This document shows, one piece after another, positions 45,752 through 52,974 of a DNA stretch of 64,000 bases; the stretch's first letter is position 1; each line of letters opens with the position of its first letter. The translations under genes and the position numbers were made by a program. This DNA is from a virus (lineage: Duplodnaviria > Caudoviricetes), in the IMG/VR virus record IMGVR_UViG_3300012979_000039, positions 9,055 through 73,054 of that record, one strand, 5' to 3'. The notes beneath the pieces are model-generated. The model did not search any database. It saw only the letters and a program-made list of their open reading frames with translations, and was not told where the DNA came from.

Positions 45752-46987
45752 TTACTTGCTTTTTCGGTAATCCTTGCCGTAAAATATATAGTCTATTATC
45801 TTTCTGTTTGCGTCATCTACAAGGTCGTTGTCGTAATCTATATATATATCAGTTACTTTCAATCCGAAACTGTGCCCCATGCCTCTGCTTATCACCTCTT
45901 TGGATATGCCTATCTTCATTGCTACGGTAGCCCAAGTGTGGCGTGCCCAGTTTGAACTCAAGTCCGGGAAGATGCCTTTCCCAAGAATCTTGCCGCGTTT
46001 GCCGAGCGGTCTGCCGATAGCCTTGAGCCCGTCATTGAAATGATGTAGATAGTCCTTATAGTCGTCATACGAGTCCATAGGGTTGAGCAAGGTACCTCTG
46101 CCTTTGTACTTTTCAATGATCGCGATTGCCTCTGGCTCCAGTTTGACAGACAGAGGTGTTCCCGTCTTGTTTCTTCGGTAATCTAACCTGCCGTTGGACA
46201 CCTGCTGTGCAGTAGCAAGGAAAAGGTCTCCGGCATTGATTCCGCGAAGAAGGAACATGAGGATAAACATATCGCGATACTGCTCTTGATAAGGCTCGCA
46301 CTTGGCATTTAAGAGGCTTTTGAGTTGTTCCGGCATAAGTGCCTTCTTCCGCGTATTCTCTTGTCTTAACGGGTACTTTCTGAAAGGATACAAGGTTGTT
46401 ATGCCCGCGTTGATTGCATCGTTGAATACGGCTCTTATGTTTCTCAGGTGGATATTCCTGCTGTTCTTCTTCTCTGTCTTGGAACAAAAGGACTCGAACT
46501 CCCGAAGATAGTCGTTGGTTATATCCTCAAACGAGCGGGTTGCAAGATTAGAGTCATATGCTTCTAACTTTCGGAGAGTATAGGCATACAGCCCTCTTGT
46601 CCCGTCATTGCCCTTCAGTTCCATGAAGCGAACAAAACGGAATCGGAACATATGGCTTTCCTCTATTTTCCGCTTCTTGTCAGGGTCTATGATGTCAATT
46701 ATCTTGTCACGAAGTTGATATGCAGTTAATCCTCCGCTTTCCCCGTTTTCCACCAGCCGCAGGATAGCGGAATCTATCTCCAATCTCTTCTTGTTAAGGA
46801 TAAGATTGATTCTTTTGGCATTCGGATGATTTACCACCTCCTTTCTTGTCGTACTCCACTGTTGCACTGTTACCTTGATACCTGTATTGATATAAGCCGC
46901 CTTGCCGTTCTTCCGTATAGCAAATTTCAGAGGAACCGGTTGATTTTCCTGAACCGCTCTGGCGTCGAAGTAGATTGTTATTGTCAT
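45752..46987 (-). CDS. int: Tyrosine integrase (Bacteroidetes type: arm-binding, SAM-like and catalytic domains)
   Basis: LLRGINAGDL, RNKTG, ARHTWAT, MGH and IYI catalytic motifs; start at ATG 46987 (MTITIY). Confidence 0.93.
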   Translation of the reverse strand: MTITIYFDARAVQENQPVPLKFAIRKNGKAAYINTGIKVTVQQWSTTRKEVVNHPNAKRINLILNKKRLEIDSAILRLVENGESGGLTAYQLRDKIIDIIDPDKKRKIEESHMFRFRFVRFMELKGNDGTRGLYAYTLRKLEAYDSNLATRSFEDITNDYLREFESFCSKTEKKNSRNIHLRNIRAVFNDAINAGITTLYPFRKYPLRQENTRKKALMPEQLKSLLNAKCEPYQEQYRDMFILMFLLRGINAGDLFLATAQQVSNGRLDYRRNKTGTPLSVKLEPEAIAIIEKYKGRGTLLNPMDSYDDYKDYLHHFNDGLKAIGRPLGKRGKILGKGIFPDLSSNWARHTWATVAMKIGISKEVISRGMGHSFGLKVTDIYIDYDNDLVDDANRKIIDYIFYGKDYRKSK

Positions 46988-47137
46988 ATCCCGCACTGAT
47001 TTTGCACTTTCTTCTCCCTTAAAATGGAAAAAAATGGAAAGAAATGCTCTTTTTTTTGACCGGGATAGTCTTGAAATGAGGGGAAAAATAAAGCGATTGA
47101 CCGTTATAACTAACTGATAATCAATCGCTTTATAGGT

Positions 47138-47181
47138 GTGATTCGGTTGGGATTCGAACCCAAGACCCACAGCTTAGAAGG
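47138..47181 (-). other. att core: 3' half of tRNA-Arg(UCU)
   Basis: Minus strand CCTTCTAAGCTGTGGGTCTTGGGTTCGAATCCCAACCGAATCAC contains the anticodon loop, T-arm and acceptor strand; no D-arm or 5' half. Confidence 0.85.
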
Positions 47182-49611: not shown

Positions 49612-50580
49612 ATGGCTAATTTCACAATCAGAGCCAATAATCACAAAGAGTGGTTGGAGGCAAGGAAAGGAGGTATCGGTGCATCAGAGATAGGCACCAT
49701 CCTCGGTGTCAATCCATACGACACTCCTTATCAGTTGTGGCTCCGCAAGACAGGCAGAGTACAGGAAGTAGAGAGCGAGAACTTCCTAATGAAAGCGGGA
49801 CACTATCTTGAAGATGCAATCTCAAAGTTCTGTGCCGATGAAACCGGCATCGAGATCATCAAGCGTTCCGCAGAGGAGTTCGTCGTAGTCAATCAAGATA
49901 AGCAGTTCCTCCGTGTTAGTCCCGACCGATATGCTTGGCTGCCTAATGCGAAGCACACACAAGATAACAAGGTTGTCGTTGAATGCAAGTCAACACAGAA
50001 GCAGATATTCGATGATGATATTCCTCTCACTTGGTTCACGCAGGTGATATATCAACTTGGCGTGTGCGAAATGAATCAGGCATATCTTGCTTGGCTGACA
50101 CAAGGCAGGGACTTCGGATATAAGCATATCGTTTTTGACAAGGACTTCTACAATGATGTAATCGTTGCGGAAATCGAAAAGTTCTGGGTTGATAACATCC
50201 TCGGAGACCAGGAGCCTGCTCTTTTGAACATCGAAGATGTGAAGAGAAAGTATCCGATTCACAATGTCGGAAAGTCAGTCGAAGCGACAGATGAACTCCT
50301 TGACAGGTATCACACTCTTGTCGATGTGAATGCAAAGATAAAGGAACTTTCGGCTATCAAAACAGAGGCCGAGAATGCCCTCAAATTTGCCCTTCAAGAC
50401 GCGGAAAGTCTAATTATACCAGCGACAAACGAAATGCCGTTCAAGACCCTTGCTACTTGGAAAGCAGCCAAGGAATCAAGCAAGTTCGACGAGAAGGCAT
50501 TTGCAGCGGAGAATCCAGAACTGTATTCAAGATATATGGTCACTACTCCGGGCAGTCGCAGATTCATGCTTAAACAGTAA
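49612..50580 (+). CDS. YqaJ-like viral recombinase/exonuclease
   Basis: EWLEARKGGIGASE, SPDR, ECKST and QVIYQLGV motifs. Confidence 0.9.
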   Translation: MANFTIRANNHKEWLEARKGGIGASEIGTILGVNPYDTPYQLWLRKTGRVQEVESENFLMKAGHYLEDAISKFCADETGIEIIKRSAEEFVVVNQDKQFLRVSPDRYAWLPNAKHTQDNKVVVECKSTQKQIFDDDIPLTWFTQVIYQLGVCEMNQAYLAWLTQGRDFGYKHIVFDKDFYNDVIVAEIEKFWVDNILGDQEPALLNIEDVKRKYPIHNVGKSVEATDELLDRYHTLVDVNAKIKELSAIKTEAENALKFALQDAESLIIPATNEMPFKTLATWKAAKESSKFDEKAFAAENPELYSRYMVTTPGSRRFMLKQ

Positions 50581-51194: not shown

Positions 51195-51295
51195 ATCGGG
51201 TAGGCTGTACTACCTTAATACGAGGGAATTTTCCACTCGGAAAGACTGTCTAACTAGTTGCTATACAGCTACAGCACGCCCCACATCGTTTTATC
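51195..51295 (+). ncRNA. Guide-RNA scaffold copy A (single-guide/omega-RNA-like) upstream of dCas12f
   Basis: GGTAG-GCTGTA-CTACC hairpin whose loop is complementary to downstream TACAGC (51264..51269 and 51270..51275); paralogous to 52467..52514. Confidence 0.65.
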
Positions 51296-51305
51296 CTAAA
51301 TCGCT

Positions 51306-52457
51306 ATGGTTATCACAAGAAGAATTGAAGTCTTTATCTGCGAGGATGATAAAGACCTCCGTAAGTCGTATTACGAAAAACTCTACGACAACAGTAAGGC
51401 GGCAGTCGCTACCGCTAATATGGCTATCTCGCATTTGTATATGCTTGACAATACAACCCCTTATCTCTCGGAAGAAGATAGAGAGAAGATAGTCTATCTC
51501 GGAGCAAAGGGAAGTGCTGCAACAAGAAACAATGCACCCTATGTCAAGGCTTCCGAGATGTTCAAAGGAAAGGCGGATATGGGTATGCTTTCCTGCGTAT
51601 GTCAGGAAGTACGAAAGGTCTATCAGGACGACCGAAAGAAAGGAATGTGGAATAGGTCACTCCGTTCATATAAGGCGAATATGCCAATGCCGTTTAAGGC
51701 GGAAAGATTCTGTGATCTTCGCATTTCCGAATATCACGATAAGGAAGATACTGTCCGCAAAGGGTGCCTCTTCACTCTTATGGGTATCCCTTTCCAATGT
51801 AGATTCGGCAGGGATAGGAGTAACAACAGAGTGATTGTGGAAAGAGTCATAGAGGGAGATTACAAGATGTGTACATCTTCCATTCAGATTGATGGGAAGA
51901 AGATATATCTGCTTTTGCGTGTCGATATTCCTGTTCAGGAACATAAACTGACAGAGGGTAAACAGATATTCGCCTTCCTTGGAGTAATGAATCCTATTGT
52001 ATGCACTACGGATATAAATTATAATCTCTGTGGCGAGAGCAAGACCAAGAGTGTTGTTTGGGAGATAGGAACAAAGGAAGAGTTCAACTATCGCAGAAGG
52101 CAGATTCAGGAAGCGGTTTGGAGATGTCAGAAGCAGAACAAATATAGCACGGGAGGTAAGGGCAGAAAGAGGAAGTGTCAGGCAATAGAACGATACCACG
52201 AAAAGGAAATGAACTATGTAGACACGAAACTCCATACTTATTCCCGTGAACTGGTGGATTTAGCCATCAAGCACAAGTGTAGTGAGATAGTTCTCATGTC
52301 GCAGAAGAAGAGGGAAGAGAAAGCCAAGAAGGACAACGCAGTTGAAGAGAAGAACAATCATGAAGAGTTCGTCCTTCGCAACTGGTCTTACTATGGCTTG
52401 AAGGAGAAGATTTCCTACAAGTGTAAGATGGCCGGGATTAAGTTGATAGAAGAATAA
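51306..52457 (+). CDS. cas12f: Nuclease-dead Cas12f/TnpB-like RNA-guided DNA-binding protein
   Basis: RuvC-I FAFLGVMNP (D replaced by F), bridge helix ..YVDTKLHTYSRELV, RuvC-II IVLMSQ (E replaced by M), LRNWSYYGLKEKISYKCKMAGI; ends before the Zn finger/RuvC-III; adjacent CRISPR array. Confidence 0.85.
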   Translation: MVITRRIEVFICEDDKDLRKSYYEKLYDNSKAAVATANMAISHLYMLDNTTPYLSEEDREKIVYLGAKGSAATRNNAPYVKASEMFKGKADMGMLSCVCQEVRKVYQDDRKKGMWNRSLRSYKANMPMPFKAERFCDLRISEYHDKEDTVRKGCLFTLMGIPFQCRFGRDRSNNRVIVERVIEGDYKMCTSSIQIDGKKIYLLLRVDIPVQEHKLTEGKQIFAFLGVMNPIVCTTDINYNLCGESKTKSVVWEIGTKEEFNYRRRQIQEAVWRCQKQNKYSTGGKGRKRKCQAIERYHEKEMNYVDTKLHTYSRELVDLAIKHKCSEIVLMSQKKREEKAKKDNAVEEKNNHEEFVLRNWSYYGLKEKISYKCKMAGIKLIEE

Positions 52458-52466
52458 AGACAATAT

Positions 52467-52555
52467 ATCGGGGTGGTTGCACACCCTTAACGGGAGGATT
52501 TCTCACTCCTGAAATACCTTTACGAAAGTGGTTTGTAGGTAGTTATGTCGGATAG
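52467..52555 (+). ncRNA. tracrRNA-like scaffold copy B / array leader
   Basis: GGGTG-GTTGCA-CACCC hairpin with loop complementary to the repeat end TGCAAC; ATACCTT complementary to repeat AAGGTAT. Confidence 0.7.
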
Positions 52556-52747
52556 GTTGTAAATACCTATAAAACTTAAGGTATATGCAACTCCTCTGTG
52601 TTTATGGAAAATTCAATCTGTTGTAAATACCTATAAAAACTCAAGGTATATGCAACATCGGAGAAAACTTGCCCTCATAAAGACGGTTGTAAACACCTAT
52701 AAAATTCAAGGTATATGCAACAACAGCCACAAACTACAATATGCAAC
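52556..52747 (+). CRISPR. CRISPR mini-array: 3 full repeats, 2 full spacers and a degenerate end
   Basis: Repeat GTTGTAAATACCTATAAAACTTAAGGTATATGCAAC at 52556..52591, 52620..52656 (37 nt) and 52686..52721; spacers of 28 and 29 nt; remnant ATATGCAAC at 52739..52747. Confidence 0.92.
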
Positions 52748-52794
52748 GAGGACAATTTTATCTTATCTAAACAAATTGTTTAATAAATAGGCAA

Positions 52795-52974
52795 ATGGAA
52801 ATATTAAAAAAAGGAACAACTGAACATTTCCCGAAAAGGAAGTTTACTTGCCCCGACTGTGGGTGTGTATATATAGCGAAATGGAACGAGGTAAATAAGT
52901 TTCCAATACCTCATACTATTTGCCCGACCTGTGAAAGACAAATAGATTGGGCGGACGGTGCGGATATAGAATAA
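52795..52974 (+). CDS. Small zinc-ribbon protein (59 aa) missed by the ORF track
   Basis: CPDCGC ... CPTC; ATG..TAA read by hand. Confidence 0.7.
   Translation: MEILKKGTTEHFPKRKFTCPDCGCVYIAKWNEVNKFPIPHTICPTCERQIDWADGADIE

What the first reader, a model, noticed from the sequence alone, without database searches (positions are those of the whole stretch)
51195..52555. Two paralogous, covarying guide-RNA scaffolds flank the dCas12f gene
Seen: A (51195) ATCGGGTAGGCTGTACTACCTTAATACGAGGGAATTTTCCACTCGGAAA; B (52467) ATCGGGGTGGTTGCACACCCTTAACGGGAGGATTTCTCACTCCTGAAA. The stem-1 pairs covary (GGTAG/CTACC versus GGGTG/CACCC). The loops covary with their downstream partners: GCTGTA pairs with TACAGC in A, and GTTGCA pairs with the repeat end TGCAAC in B. 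B also has the anti-repeat ATACCTT. Known: Cas12f/TnpB guides use such a pseudoknot immediately 5' of the guide. Inference: one effector with two guide formats, a fixed single guide (likely ACGCCCCACATCGTTTTATC from 51276, or 6 nt earlier) and a tracr plus array. This could be a snapshot of the omega-RNA/CRISPR transition.
Basis: partly seen in the sequence, partly recalled or inferred. Interest (0 to 1): 0.88.

Follow-up and report, generated by a model that had tools for sequence, protein, structure and literature searches.

The report
Phage dead-Cas12f with two guide modules
A temperate gut-bacterial phage carries a cutting-dead miniature CRISPR protein (dCas12f) flanked by two related guide-RNA scaffolds: one serves a small CRISPR array, and the other is an array that has collapsed into a single fixed guide, so the phage probably uses it to bind and silence DNA rather than cut it.

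Summary
Elements A (51195-51243) and B (52467-52514) are the only two copies of one RNA scaffold in the 73-kb phage genome. They flank a 383-aa gene whose best solved relative is nuclease-deactivated Cas12f (PDB 9n9c, E 2.9e-54).

Across 38 distinct homologous modules, mostly on Prevotella/Bacteroidales phage or provirus contigs:
- Both hairpins covary: 98.7% of cells are paired, against 42-56% when the partners are slid.
- The stem-1 loop pairs with the last six bases of its own repeat at 214 of 216 positions, using five different hexamer pairs.
- The anti-repeat after stem 2 matches its own repeat: -7.2 versus -3.9 kcal/mol for non-cognate pairs.

Scaffolds on both sides of the gene, each followed by its own mini-array, are common in the family.

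A is not a step from omega-RNA towards CRISPR. It is a collapsed array. A 95%-identical relative (L114) keeps a spacer and a full repeat exactly between A's two tandem TACAGC, and a DNA contig from a public sequencing run has 112 extra bases at the same junction. Fused single guides arose more than once (L113, probably L003).

The phage has no sigma factor, cas1 or cas2. One sibling spacer matches another provirus 29/29, between a promoter and a start codon, which favours RNA-guided repression. No convincing target was found for the window's own guides. No RNA or binding data exist.

The parts
51195..51243 (+). Scaffold A. Hairpin P1 is 51198-51203 paired with 51210-51215, with loop GCTGTA at 51204-51209. 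Hairpin P2 is 51219-51226 paired with 51233-51241.
51243..51269 (+). Remnant of the fused first repeat of module A: AGACTGT (the anti-repeat position), a short linker, then the first TACAGC (51264-51269).
   Evidence: Comparison with L114 and L001.
51270..51275 (+). Second TACAGC. It is the last six bases of a deleted repeat and the likely pseudoknot partner of loop A. The deletion scar lies at 51269|51270.
   Evidence: L114 has 53 extra bases here: a 17-nt spacer plus a 36-nt repeat. One run's DNA contig (X1) has 112. RNAfold pairs the loop with this copy.
51276..51294 (+). Single guide of module A (ACGCCCCACATCGTTTTAT). It lies in the 5' leader of dcas12f.
   Evidence: Identical in the window, L001 and L114, while the next 11 nt are 64% identical to L001.
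51306..52457 (+). dcas12f gene, 383 aa. The RuvC-I Asp position is Phe224 and the RuvC-II Glu position is Ser332. The C-terminus is cut before RuvC-III.
52467..52554 (+). Scaffold B with its tracr tail. P1 is 52470-52475 paired with 52482-52487, with loop GTTGCA at 52476-52481. P2 is 52491-52498 paired with 52503-52511. Anti-repeat 2 is ATACCTT (52514-52520). Anti-repeat 1 is TTTGTAGGTA (52532-52541).
52555..52747 (+). Mini CRISPR array. The 37-nt repeats are at 52555-52591, 52620-52656 and 52685-52721. The spacers are at 52592-52619, 52657-52684 and 52722-52740. A repeat remnant ATGCAAC is at 52741-52747.
52748..52767 (+). Possible terminal guide after the repeat remnant (GAGGACAATTTTATC...). 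It is kept with two changes in L114.
   Evidence: This is inference only.

Best explanation
This is a phage-borne RNA-guided DNA-binding system built on a nuclease-dead Cas12f. It has no sigma factor of its own.

RNA architecture. The protein is served by two guide modules with the same layout: hairpin P1, hairpin P2, an anti-repeat that pairs with the repeat just upstream of its 3' end (P3), and a six-base pseudoknot between the P1 loop and the last six bases of the repeat (P4). Together these place the guide at the 3' end.

The two modules.
- Module B is a tracr-type RNA that pairs in trans, or in cis for the first unit, with crRNAs from a three-repeat array.
- Module A is the same kind of module after its array lost its units by deletion between repeat ends. 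What remains is a roughly 100-nt natural single guide with one fixed guide (51276-51294) in the dcas12f leader.

Inferred action. The complex binds matching DNA next to a short 5' motif and, being unable to cut, blocks transcription of genes on rival mobile elements or the host.

Shown here: the homology, the dead active site, the RNA pairings by covariation, the collapse of A, and spacer turnover in relatives.

Inferred, not shown: RNA expression, protein binding, repression, and every target of this phage's own guides.
For: Protein.
- Best PDB match is 9n9c 'Nuclease-deactivated Cas12f', E 2.9e-54, over residues 4-381 against 9-363 of 365.
- Against the active Cas12f 9nzo, the DLG Asp aligns with Phe224 and the ME Glu aligns with Ser332. 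The protein ends about 90 residues early.

Scaffold.
- 38 distinct modules give two hairpins, and 12 of 14 pairs show compensatory changes.
- 98.7% of cells are paired versus 42-56% when slid, and 0 of 500 shuffles reach the observed value.

Pseudoknot.
- 36 modules pair at 214 of 216 positions.
- Five loop/partner pairs occur: GCTGTA/TACAGC, GCTGCA/TGCAGC, GTTGTA/TACAAC, GTTGCA/TGCAAC and GCTGTG/CACAGC.
- 0 of 20,000 permutations reach this. Fisher p is 1e-4 and 1.6e-5.

Anti-repeat and cofold.
- Cognate duplexes average -7.2 kcal/mol versus -3.9 for non-cognate, with 0 of 5,000 permutations as good.
- The cofold of B with repeat 1 shows both anti-repeat duplexes.

Collapse of A.
- L114 (95% identical protein) has a 17-nt spacer plus a full 36-nt repeat exactly between the two TACAGC, followed by the same guide.
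- A DNA contig has 112 extra bases at 51269|51270.
- The A RNA is 96% identical between the window and L001, while the flanking genes are 78-80% identical.

Arrays in relatives.
- Sibling phages differ by spacers at the scaffold-proximal end.
- One spacer matches another provirus 29/29. The site lies between a Bacteroidetes-type promoter and a start codon.

Genome content. No sigma-70 r2 or r4 domains, no cas1 and no cas2 in the phage.
Against: No RNA or binding evidence exists. The public runs gave only contigs, and nothing shows transcription or RNA ends.

No target was found for guide A or spacers 1-3 in any of these searches:
- the phage itself;
- 401 genomes of the family of Prevotella sp. 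P2-180 (guide A only), where the hit count was about equal to the control;
- IMG/VR, GenBank phages and plasmids.

The only long matches are chance-compatible.

Module A lacks a clean P3 partner, so it could be weakened. Its high conservation could reflect a recent exchange of the module rather than selection. L114, which is closer in the gene, has the uncollapsed form.

No Bacteroidetes -7 box lies directly upstream of A or B.

Repression rests on one protospacer in a 61%-identical subfamily.
Confidence: 0.66

Rival explanations
1. Only module B works. A is a decaying relic of an upstream array with no function.
For: - A lost its repeat body and tracr tail.
- Its anti-repeat AGACTGT has no full partner.
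- No target was found.
- The sequence after a last repeat is not a true spacer in ordinary arrays.
Against: - P1, P2 and the loop/TACAGC pairing are intact.
- The 100-nt A RNA is 96% identical between phages whose flanking genes are 78-80% identical, and identity drops to 64% right after nucleotide 19 of the guide.
- The same 19-nt guide is kept in three phages with 0, 0 and 1 extra units.
- Fused single guides arose independently in L113, and probably L003.
Confidence: 0.2
2. The complex activates rather than represses. Like its closest solved relative, it recruits a host ECF sigma factor and RNA polymerase to the target (RNA-guided transcription).
For: - The best structural relative, 9n9c, is the sigma-E-dependent activator (PMC13472631).
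- Both have the same C-terminal truncation.
- In Prevotella sp. P2-180, boxes matching the gene-proximal guide are all preceded by G, the Fta TAM.
Against: - No sigma-70 r2/r4 gene in the complete phage.
- Hoffmann et al. separate a CRISPR-array-linked dCas12f cluster without rpoE and suggest repression for it.
- The one protospacer lies downstream of an existing promoter and 11 nt from the ATG, a poor place for a new start site.
Confidence: 0.12
3. The gene is a TnpB of an IS200/IS605-type element, and A and B are omega-RNA or transposon-end sequences.
For: - Weak Pfam OrfB_IS605 hit and a PHROG 'transposase' hit.
- NCBIfam guided_TnpB at 1.5e-20.
Against: - The NCBIfam score of 73.9 is under the cut-off of 100.
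- The protein is far closer to Cas12f and dCas12f.
- The scaffolds lie outside the ORF and are followed by spacer-repeat arrays with changing spacers.
- The catalytic residues are lost.
- There is a single copy in the genome.
Confidence: 0.02

Closest known systems
dCas12f-sigmaE RNA-guided transcription systems (Hoffmann et al., Nature 2026, PMC13472631; structure PMC12259091, PDB 9n9c)
   Same: - Closest solved protein (E 2.9e-54), with the same loss of RuvC residues and the same C-terminal truncation.
- A guide RNA with four paired regions and a short 3' guide.
- A single guide of about 100 nt, as in module A.
   Different: - Here there is no rpoE and no adjacent hth gene, and the system sits on a temperate phage.
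- The guide modules lie on both sides of the gene.
- One module is still a tracr plus array with changing spacers.
- Activation is unlikely.
CRISPR-array-associated dCas12f cluster without rpoE (Extended Data Fig. 1a,b of PMC13472631)
   Same: - Dead Cas12f next to CRISPR arrays.
- A covarying putative guide or tracr RNA upstream of the array.
- Suggested promoter-targeting repression.
   Different: - That cluster is described only briefly, with a Chitinophagaceae MAG example targeting an efflux promoter.
- Phage carriage, two matched scaffold/repeat modules per gene, and array-to-single-guide collapse are not described there.
- I could not test whether this family is the same cluster.
Type V-F CRISPR-Cas12f (tracrRNA plus crRNA)
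   Same: - A dual RNA with two repeat:anti-repeat duplexes, and the guide 3' of the repeat.
- A miniature effector.
- The flank TTA at the one protospacer fits NTTR-type TAMs (TAM motifs recalled from memory).
   Different: - The effector is catalytically dead.
- There is no cas1, cas2 or cas4.
- There are two scaffolds per effector.
Prophage-encoded TldR (nuclease-dead TnpB-like repressors; 10.1101/2023.11.30.569447)
   Same: A temperate-phage-borne, nuclease-dead, RNA-guided protein that silences a promoter-proximal site.
   Different: - TldR descends directly from TnpB with one omega-like guide and a fixed host target (fliC).
- This protein is a Cas12f derivative with arrays and spacer turnover.
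tracr-L, the natural single guide of S. pyogenes Cas9 (Workman et al. 2021, cited in PMC12259091)
   Same: A natural single-guide form coexists with a tracr/array format for one effector and is encoded next to the effector gene.
   Different: - tracr-L targets the cas9 promoter.
- No self-target of guide A exists in this phage, even at an 11-nt seed with one mismatch.

Membership tests
Nuclease-dead Cas12f (dCas12f) | Full-length homology to Cas12f/dCas12f | tested here: met
   9n9c_A at E 2.9e-54 over residues 4-381. Active Cas12f 9nzo/9nzr at 1.4e-34.
Nuclease-dead Cas12f (dCas12f) | RuvC-I Asp and RuvC-II Glu replaced | tested here: met
   In the alignment to active 9nzo_B, the D of DLGI aligns with F224 (FLGV) and the E of QME aligns with S332 (numbering). 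This is by motif only. Catalytic numbering in 9nzo was not checked independently.
Nuclease-dead Cas12f (dCas12f) | C-terminal truncation that removes the zinc finger and RuvC-III | tested here: met
   The protein ends at residue 383, aligned to about residue 413 of 506 in 9nzo_B and to 363 of 365 in 9n9c_A.
dCas12f-sigmaE RNA-guided transcription system | Operonic rpoE (ECF sigma with a C-terminal extension) | tested here: not met
   No Sigma70_r2 or r4_2 match at E<=1 in the 73-kb genome, which CheckV rates 100% complete. The controls gave hits.
dCas12f-sigmaE RNA-guided transcription system | Single guide RNA of 85-105 nt encoded downstream of dcas12f, with no tracrRNA | tested here: not met
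   The downstream module is a scaffold plus tail plus a 3-repeat array. The single-guide form lies upstream.
Type V-F CRISPR-Cas12f | CRISPR array plus a tracrRNA with an anti-repeat | tested here: met
   Three 37-nt repeats. Two anti-repeat duplexes in the cofold. Cognate matching across 35 modules.
Type V-F CRISPR-Cas12f | Active RuvC nuclease and an adaptation module (cas1/cas2/cas4) | tested here: not met
   Catalytic residues are lost. No Cas1 or Cas2 in the genome. cas4 was not searched.
TnpB / omega-RNA (IS200/IS605) | Family model above its cut-off, and an omega-RNA overlapping the gene's 3' end at a transposon end | tested here: not met
   NCBIfam guided_TnpB scores 73.9 bits against a cut-off of 100. 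Scaffold B starts 10 nt after the stop codon and leads an array.
Nuclease-dead Cas12f (dCas12f) | Asymmetric dimer on one guide RNA, and guide-dependent DNA binding | not testable with these tools
   The AlphaFold model was too poor to use (pLDDT 38). No biochemical data exist.

The most novel reading that the evidence does not exclude
Temperate Bacteroidales phages carry a self-contained, updatable CRISPR-interference device. It is a dead Cas12f with two partly orthogonal tracr/repeat modules. Their arrays gain spacers at the scaffold-proximal end without any phage-encoded cas1/cas2, and they silence promoter-proximal sites on rival proviruses or host defence islands. Arrays repeatedly collapse by repeat-end deletion into hard-wired natural single guides. 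Near-isogenic phages here carry different unit counts, which would be consistent with the route by which dCas12f single guides are thought to have arisen.
Probability: 0.4. Interest if true: 0.78.

Novelty: new variant of a known kind. Interest (0 to 1): 0.62.

Why it matters
Dead Cas12f proteins were described only recently, mainly as sigma-factor-dependent activators with single guides. The proposal that those guides arose from CRISPR arrays rested on one Sphingobacterium locus.

This phage family supplies the intermediate forms at close range. With one effector it shows tracr plus array, scaffold fused to the first repeat, arrays with 2, 1 and 0 extra units at one junction, and fully fused single guides.

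It also gives a covariation-backed RNA architecture (two hairpins, an anti-repeat and a six-base pseudoknot). That architecture could guide minimal guide design for very small DNA binders of 377-383 aa.

If the repression reading holds, it adds a type V case to mobile-element-borne, cleavage-free CRISPR silencing used in conflicts between mobile elements.

Tried and rejected
Targets in the phage itself.
- Guide A and spacers 1-3 have no second site in the window or the whole phage. This holds at up to 4 mismatches in 16 nt, and at an 11-nt seed with one mismatch.

Targets of guide A elsewhere.
- 401 genomes of the family of Prevotella sp. P2-180, at up to 2 mismatches in 18 nt: 29 hits, about equal to the reversed-pattern control.
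- The contexts I read were not cas9 or any recurrent gene.
- IMG/VR, 16-mer of guide A: 54 hits. About 45 are one GC-rich lysozyme-like coding motif (GGETMWGV) in unrelated phages, so this is coincidence.
- JGI metagenomes, 18-mer of guide A: two hits.
  - L111 is the 5' end of a cas9 gene, with a 19-20 nt match. That Cas9's named relatives are Clostridia, not the Bacteroidales host range, so I treat the match as chance.
  - L112 is chance.

Targets of the array spacers.
- Spacers 1 and 2 as 20-mers: none in IMG/VR.
- Spacer 3 as a 19-mer: one coding hit, L123, which does not extend.
- L111 and L123 share the 5' flank GATGA. This is unexplained and too thin to call a TAM.
- GenBank phages and PLSDB plasmids: nothing.
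- Other sibling arrays against the L116 provirus: nothing.

Expression.
- No run holds more than 22% of the sampled words, and only contigs were available.
- A 107-nt metatranscriptome contig covers 52479-52572 of a relative. That does not show transcription.

Other searches.
- Rfam: no family.
- Sigma-70-type promoter and terminator scan: below the shuffled expectation. No Bacteroidetes -7 box lies next to A or B.
- AlphaFold2 on a 12-sequence alignment gave pLDDT 38, so no fold search was run.

Full report
**What is there.**

The window is bases 9055-73054 of a single 73,054-bp virus record that CheckV rates complete. It carries an integrase (45752-47170, minus strand). It also carries a rightward early region with a YqaJ/RecE-like exonuclease (49612-50580). 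This points to a temperate phage.

The ORF at 51306-52457 encodes 383 aa. Its best match among solved structures is 9n9c, 'Nuclease-deactivated Cas12f'. The E-value is 2.9e-54, and the match covers residues 4-381 against 9-363 of 365. Active Cas12f nucleases follow at 1.4e-34.

In the alignment to the active 9nzo protein:
- the Asp of the DLGI strand aligns with Phe224;
- the Glu of QME aligns with Ser332;
- the phage protein stops about 90 residues before the end of the active enzyme.

Hoffmann et al. describe the same C-terminal truncation for dCas12f. The NCBIfam TnpB model scores below its cut-off.

**The observation.**

A three-repeat array follows B (52555-52721; 37-nt repeats, 28-nt spacers). 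A profile of the scaffold finds exactly these two copies in the whole genome.

**Family context.**

The protein has about 830 relatives at E<1e-10. I fetched 33 loci from IMG/VR phage contigs and from Prevotella, Prevotellaceae and Bacteroidales genomes, plus two from Logan contigs.

A scaffold profile finds one copy 150-450 nt upstream of the gene and another 25-40 nt downstream in most distinct loci. These are L004, L005, L007, L008, L009/L032, L022, L023, L025, L028, L029, L030, L033 and L114. Each copy is followed by its own mini-array with its own repeat sequence. The upstream array typically ends 15-40 nt before the start codon.

Two flanking scaffolds are therefore the usual layout in the loci fetched, not a peculiarity of this phage. 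One subfamily (L010-L027) has only the downstream module.

**RNA structure.**

An alignment of 38 distinct scaffolds gives two hairpins, and 12 of 14 pairs show compensatory changes. 98.7% of cells form standard pairs, against 42-56% when the partners are slid. No shuffle out of 500 reaches the observed value.

Pseudoknot. The six-base P1 loop is complementary to the last six bases of the repeat that follows it.
- Five loop/partner combinations occur: GCTGTA/TACAGC, GCTGCA/TGCAGC, GTTGTA/TACAAC, GTTGCA/TGCAAC and GCTGTG/CACAGC.
- 214 of 216 positions pair.
- 0 of 20,000 permutations do as well.
- The clearest single case is L001. It has a B scaffold very like the window's. Its loop reads GCTGTA and its repeats end in TACAGC, where the window has GTTGCA and TGCAAC.

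Anti-repeats.
- The 7-8 nt after P2 pair with the repeat segment just before that hexamer.
- Cognate duplexes average -7.2 kcal/mol against -3.9 for non-cognate pairs.
- Within one locus, own partners average -7.3 and the other module's partners -4.6.
- A second anti-repeat in the tracr tail (TTTGTAGGTA, 52532-52541) pairs with the 5' half of the repeat.

This makes four paired regions plus a 3' guide. The cryo-EM study reports the same count for the Fta dCas12f guide.

In the window, the two pseudoknots are partly orthogonal: -6.5 and -6.1 kcal/mol for own partners against -2.2 crosswise. L001 uses the same hexamer in both modules, so this orthogonality is not a conserved requirement.

**What A is.**

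A has P1 and P2. It has no tracr tail and no full repeat. P2 is followed by AGACTGT, a short linker, two tandem TACAGC, and then ACGCCCCACATCGTTTTAT.

L114, whose protein is 95% identical, has the same scaffold. Between its two TACAGC it carries a 17-nt spacer and a full 36-nt repeat. That repeat pairs with the L114 anti-repeat (ACTCTC with GAGAGT). The same guide follows. Removing the 47 bases between them reproduces the window's tandem TACAGC. A DNA contig from a public run has 112 extra bases at exactly 51269|51270.

So relatives carry 0, 1 and about 2 extra units at one junction. A is an array that collapsed by deletion between repeat ends, and its guide starts at 51276.

Conservation of the A RNA:
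- The 100-nt A RNA is 96% identical between the window and L001.
- The flanking genes are 78-80% identical.
- The 11 nt after the guide are 64% identical.

This fits constraint on an RNA of about that length. Recent exchange of the module is also possible.

Fused guides arose elsewhere too. In L113 the downstream module is scaffold, ATACCTT, a six-base loop, AAGGTAT, A, TGCAGC and then the guide. L003 looks similar and has a terminator after it.

The direction of change is thus array to single guide, as Hoffmann et al. proposed. It is not omega-RNA to CRISPR.

**What it probably does.**

The phage encodes no sigma-70-family domain, no Cas1 and no Cas2.

In the sibling phages L010-L027, scaffold and repeat are identical. 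The arrays differ by spacers at the scaffold-proximal end and share the distal ones. This is the pattern of polarised acquisition.

One such spacer matches a different provirus record (L116) at 29 of 29 bases.
- Its 5' flank is ...AATTA.
- It lies between a TTTG-N20-TACATTTG promoter and the ATG of a small ORF.
- The ORF sits beside an Abi-like ATPase, an Eco57I-like methylase and HipA.
- The crRNA would pair with the template strand.

This position suits a transcription block. It is one case, from a subfamily 61% identical to the window's protein.

I therefore favour RNA-guided repression of rival elements or host genes. I keep sigma-dependent activation as a minority rival.

A, the gene and B are probably made from the early operon transcript, because no Bacteroidetes -7 box lies next to them. 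This is inference.

**What is missing.**

No target of this phage's own guides was found in any collection I could search (details under Tried and rejected). The public runs gave no usable RNA evidence. The structure prediction failed.

**Known or new.**

dCas12f, its single guides, a CRISPR-linked dCas12f cluster and prophage-borne dead TnpB repressors are all published. I found no paper describing any of the following:
- phage-borne dCas12f in Bacteroidales;
- two matched scaffold/repeat modules per gene;
- the unit-by-unit collapse seen here.

I rate it a new variant of a known kind.

Noticed in passing
L032 1401-1470; L109 1610-1760 (G001:C6:17110-17260): In Prevotella sp. P2-180, the guide after the last upstream repeat (TGTTGGAAAAGTGTA...) recurs as iterated boxes TGTTGGAAAA[AG]TGT, each preceded by G. 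One box lies just downstream in the dcas12f leader. Several more lie on another contig next to a Toprim-DnaB-like gene. These could be self and trans targets with a 5'-G TAM, or shared operator sites. The motif is absent from the window.
   Followed up: partly
G001:C48:110484-112154 and 90650-90700: The same Prevotella contig holds further scaffold copies 2.5-4.5 kb and 24 kb from the dcas12f gene. Some loci therefore carry more than two modules. L028 (five scaffolds), L025 and L030 (three each) show the same.
   Followed up: no
L028 2690-2760; L008 1412-1500: Some modules use very short repeats of about 12 nt, consisting only of the anti-repeat partner plus the pseudoknot hexamer (for example GGTATATGCAGC), with spacers of about 15-20 nt. 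This suggests that only the 3' end of the repeat is needed.
   Followed up: no
L004 130-366; L008 1097-1227; L006 about 1375-1480: Short tandem repeats lie just upstream of the guide modules or the gene in several relatives. L004 has 12-nt units (CCGACACACCTA), L008 has 14-nt units, and L006 has units of about 22 nt (CCCATTGGAAACGATGCTTCC). Their meaning is unknown.
   Followed up: no
L111 2243-2262; L123 4409-4427: The only long outside matches to the window's guide A (in a cas9 5' region) and to spacer 3 (in a phage coding region) share the same 5' flank, GATGA. Each match alone is compatible with chance, and the shared flank is unexplained.
   Followed up: partly
window 52795-52974: A 59-aa ORF with two CxxC pairs (zinc-ribbon-like, weak Pfam hits only) directly follows the array. 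L001 and L114 have a different small ORF at this place.
   Followed up: no
L116 3101-3325 (minus strand): The ORF downstream of the sibling protospacer encodes a Cys/His-rich protein of about 70 aa (starting MSNFYYVNKIAQPTGEHEVH...) with no Pfam family. It lies in a defence-island-like stretch of a provirus.
   Followed up: no
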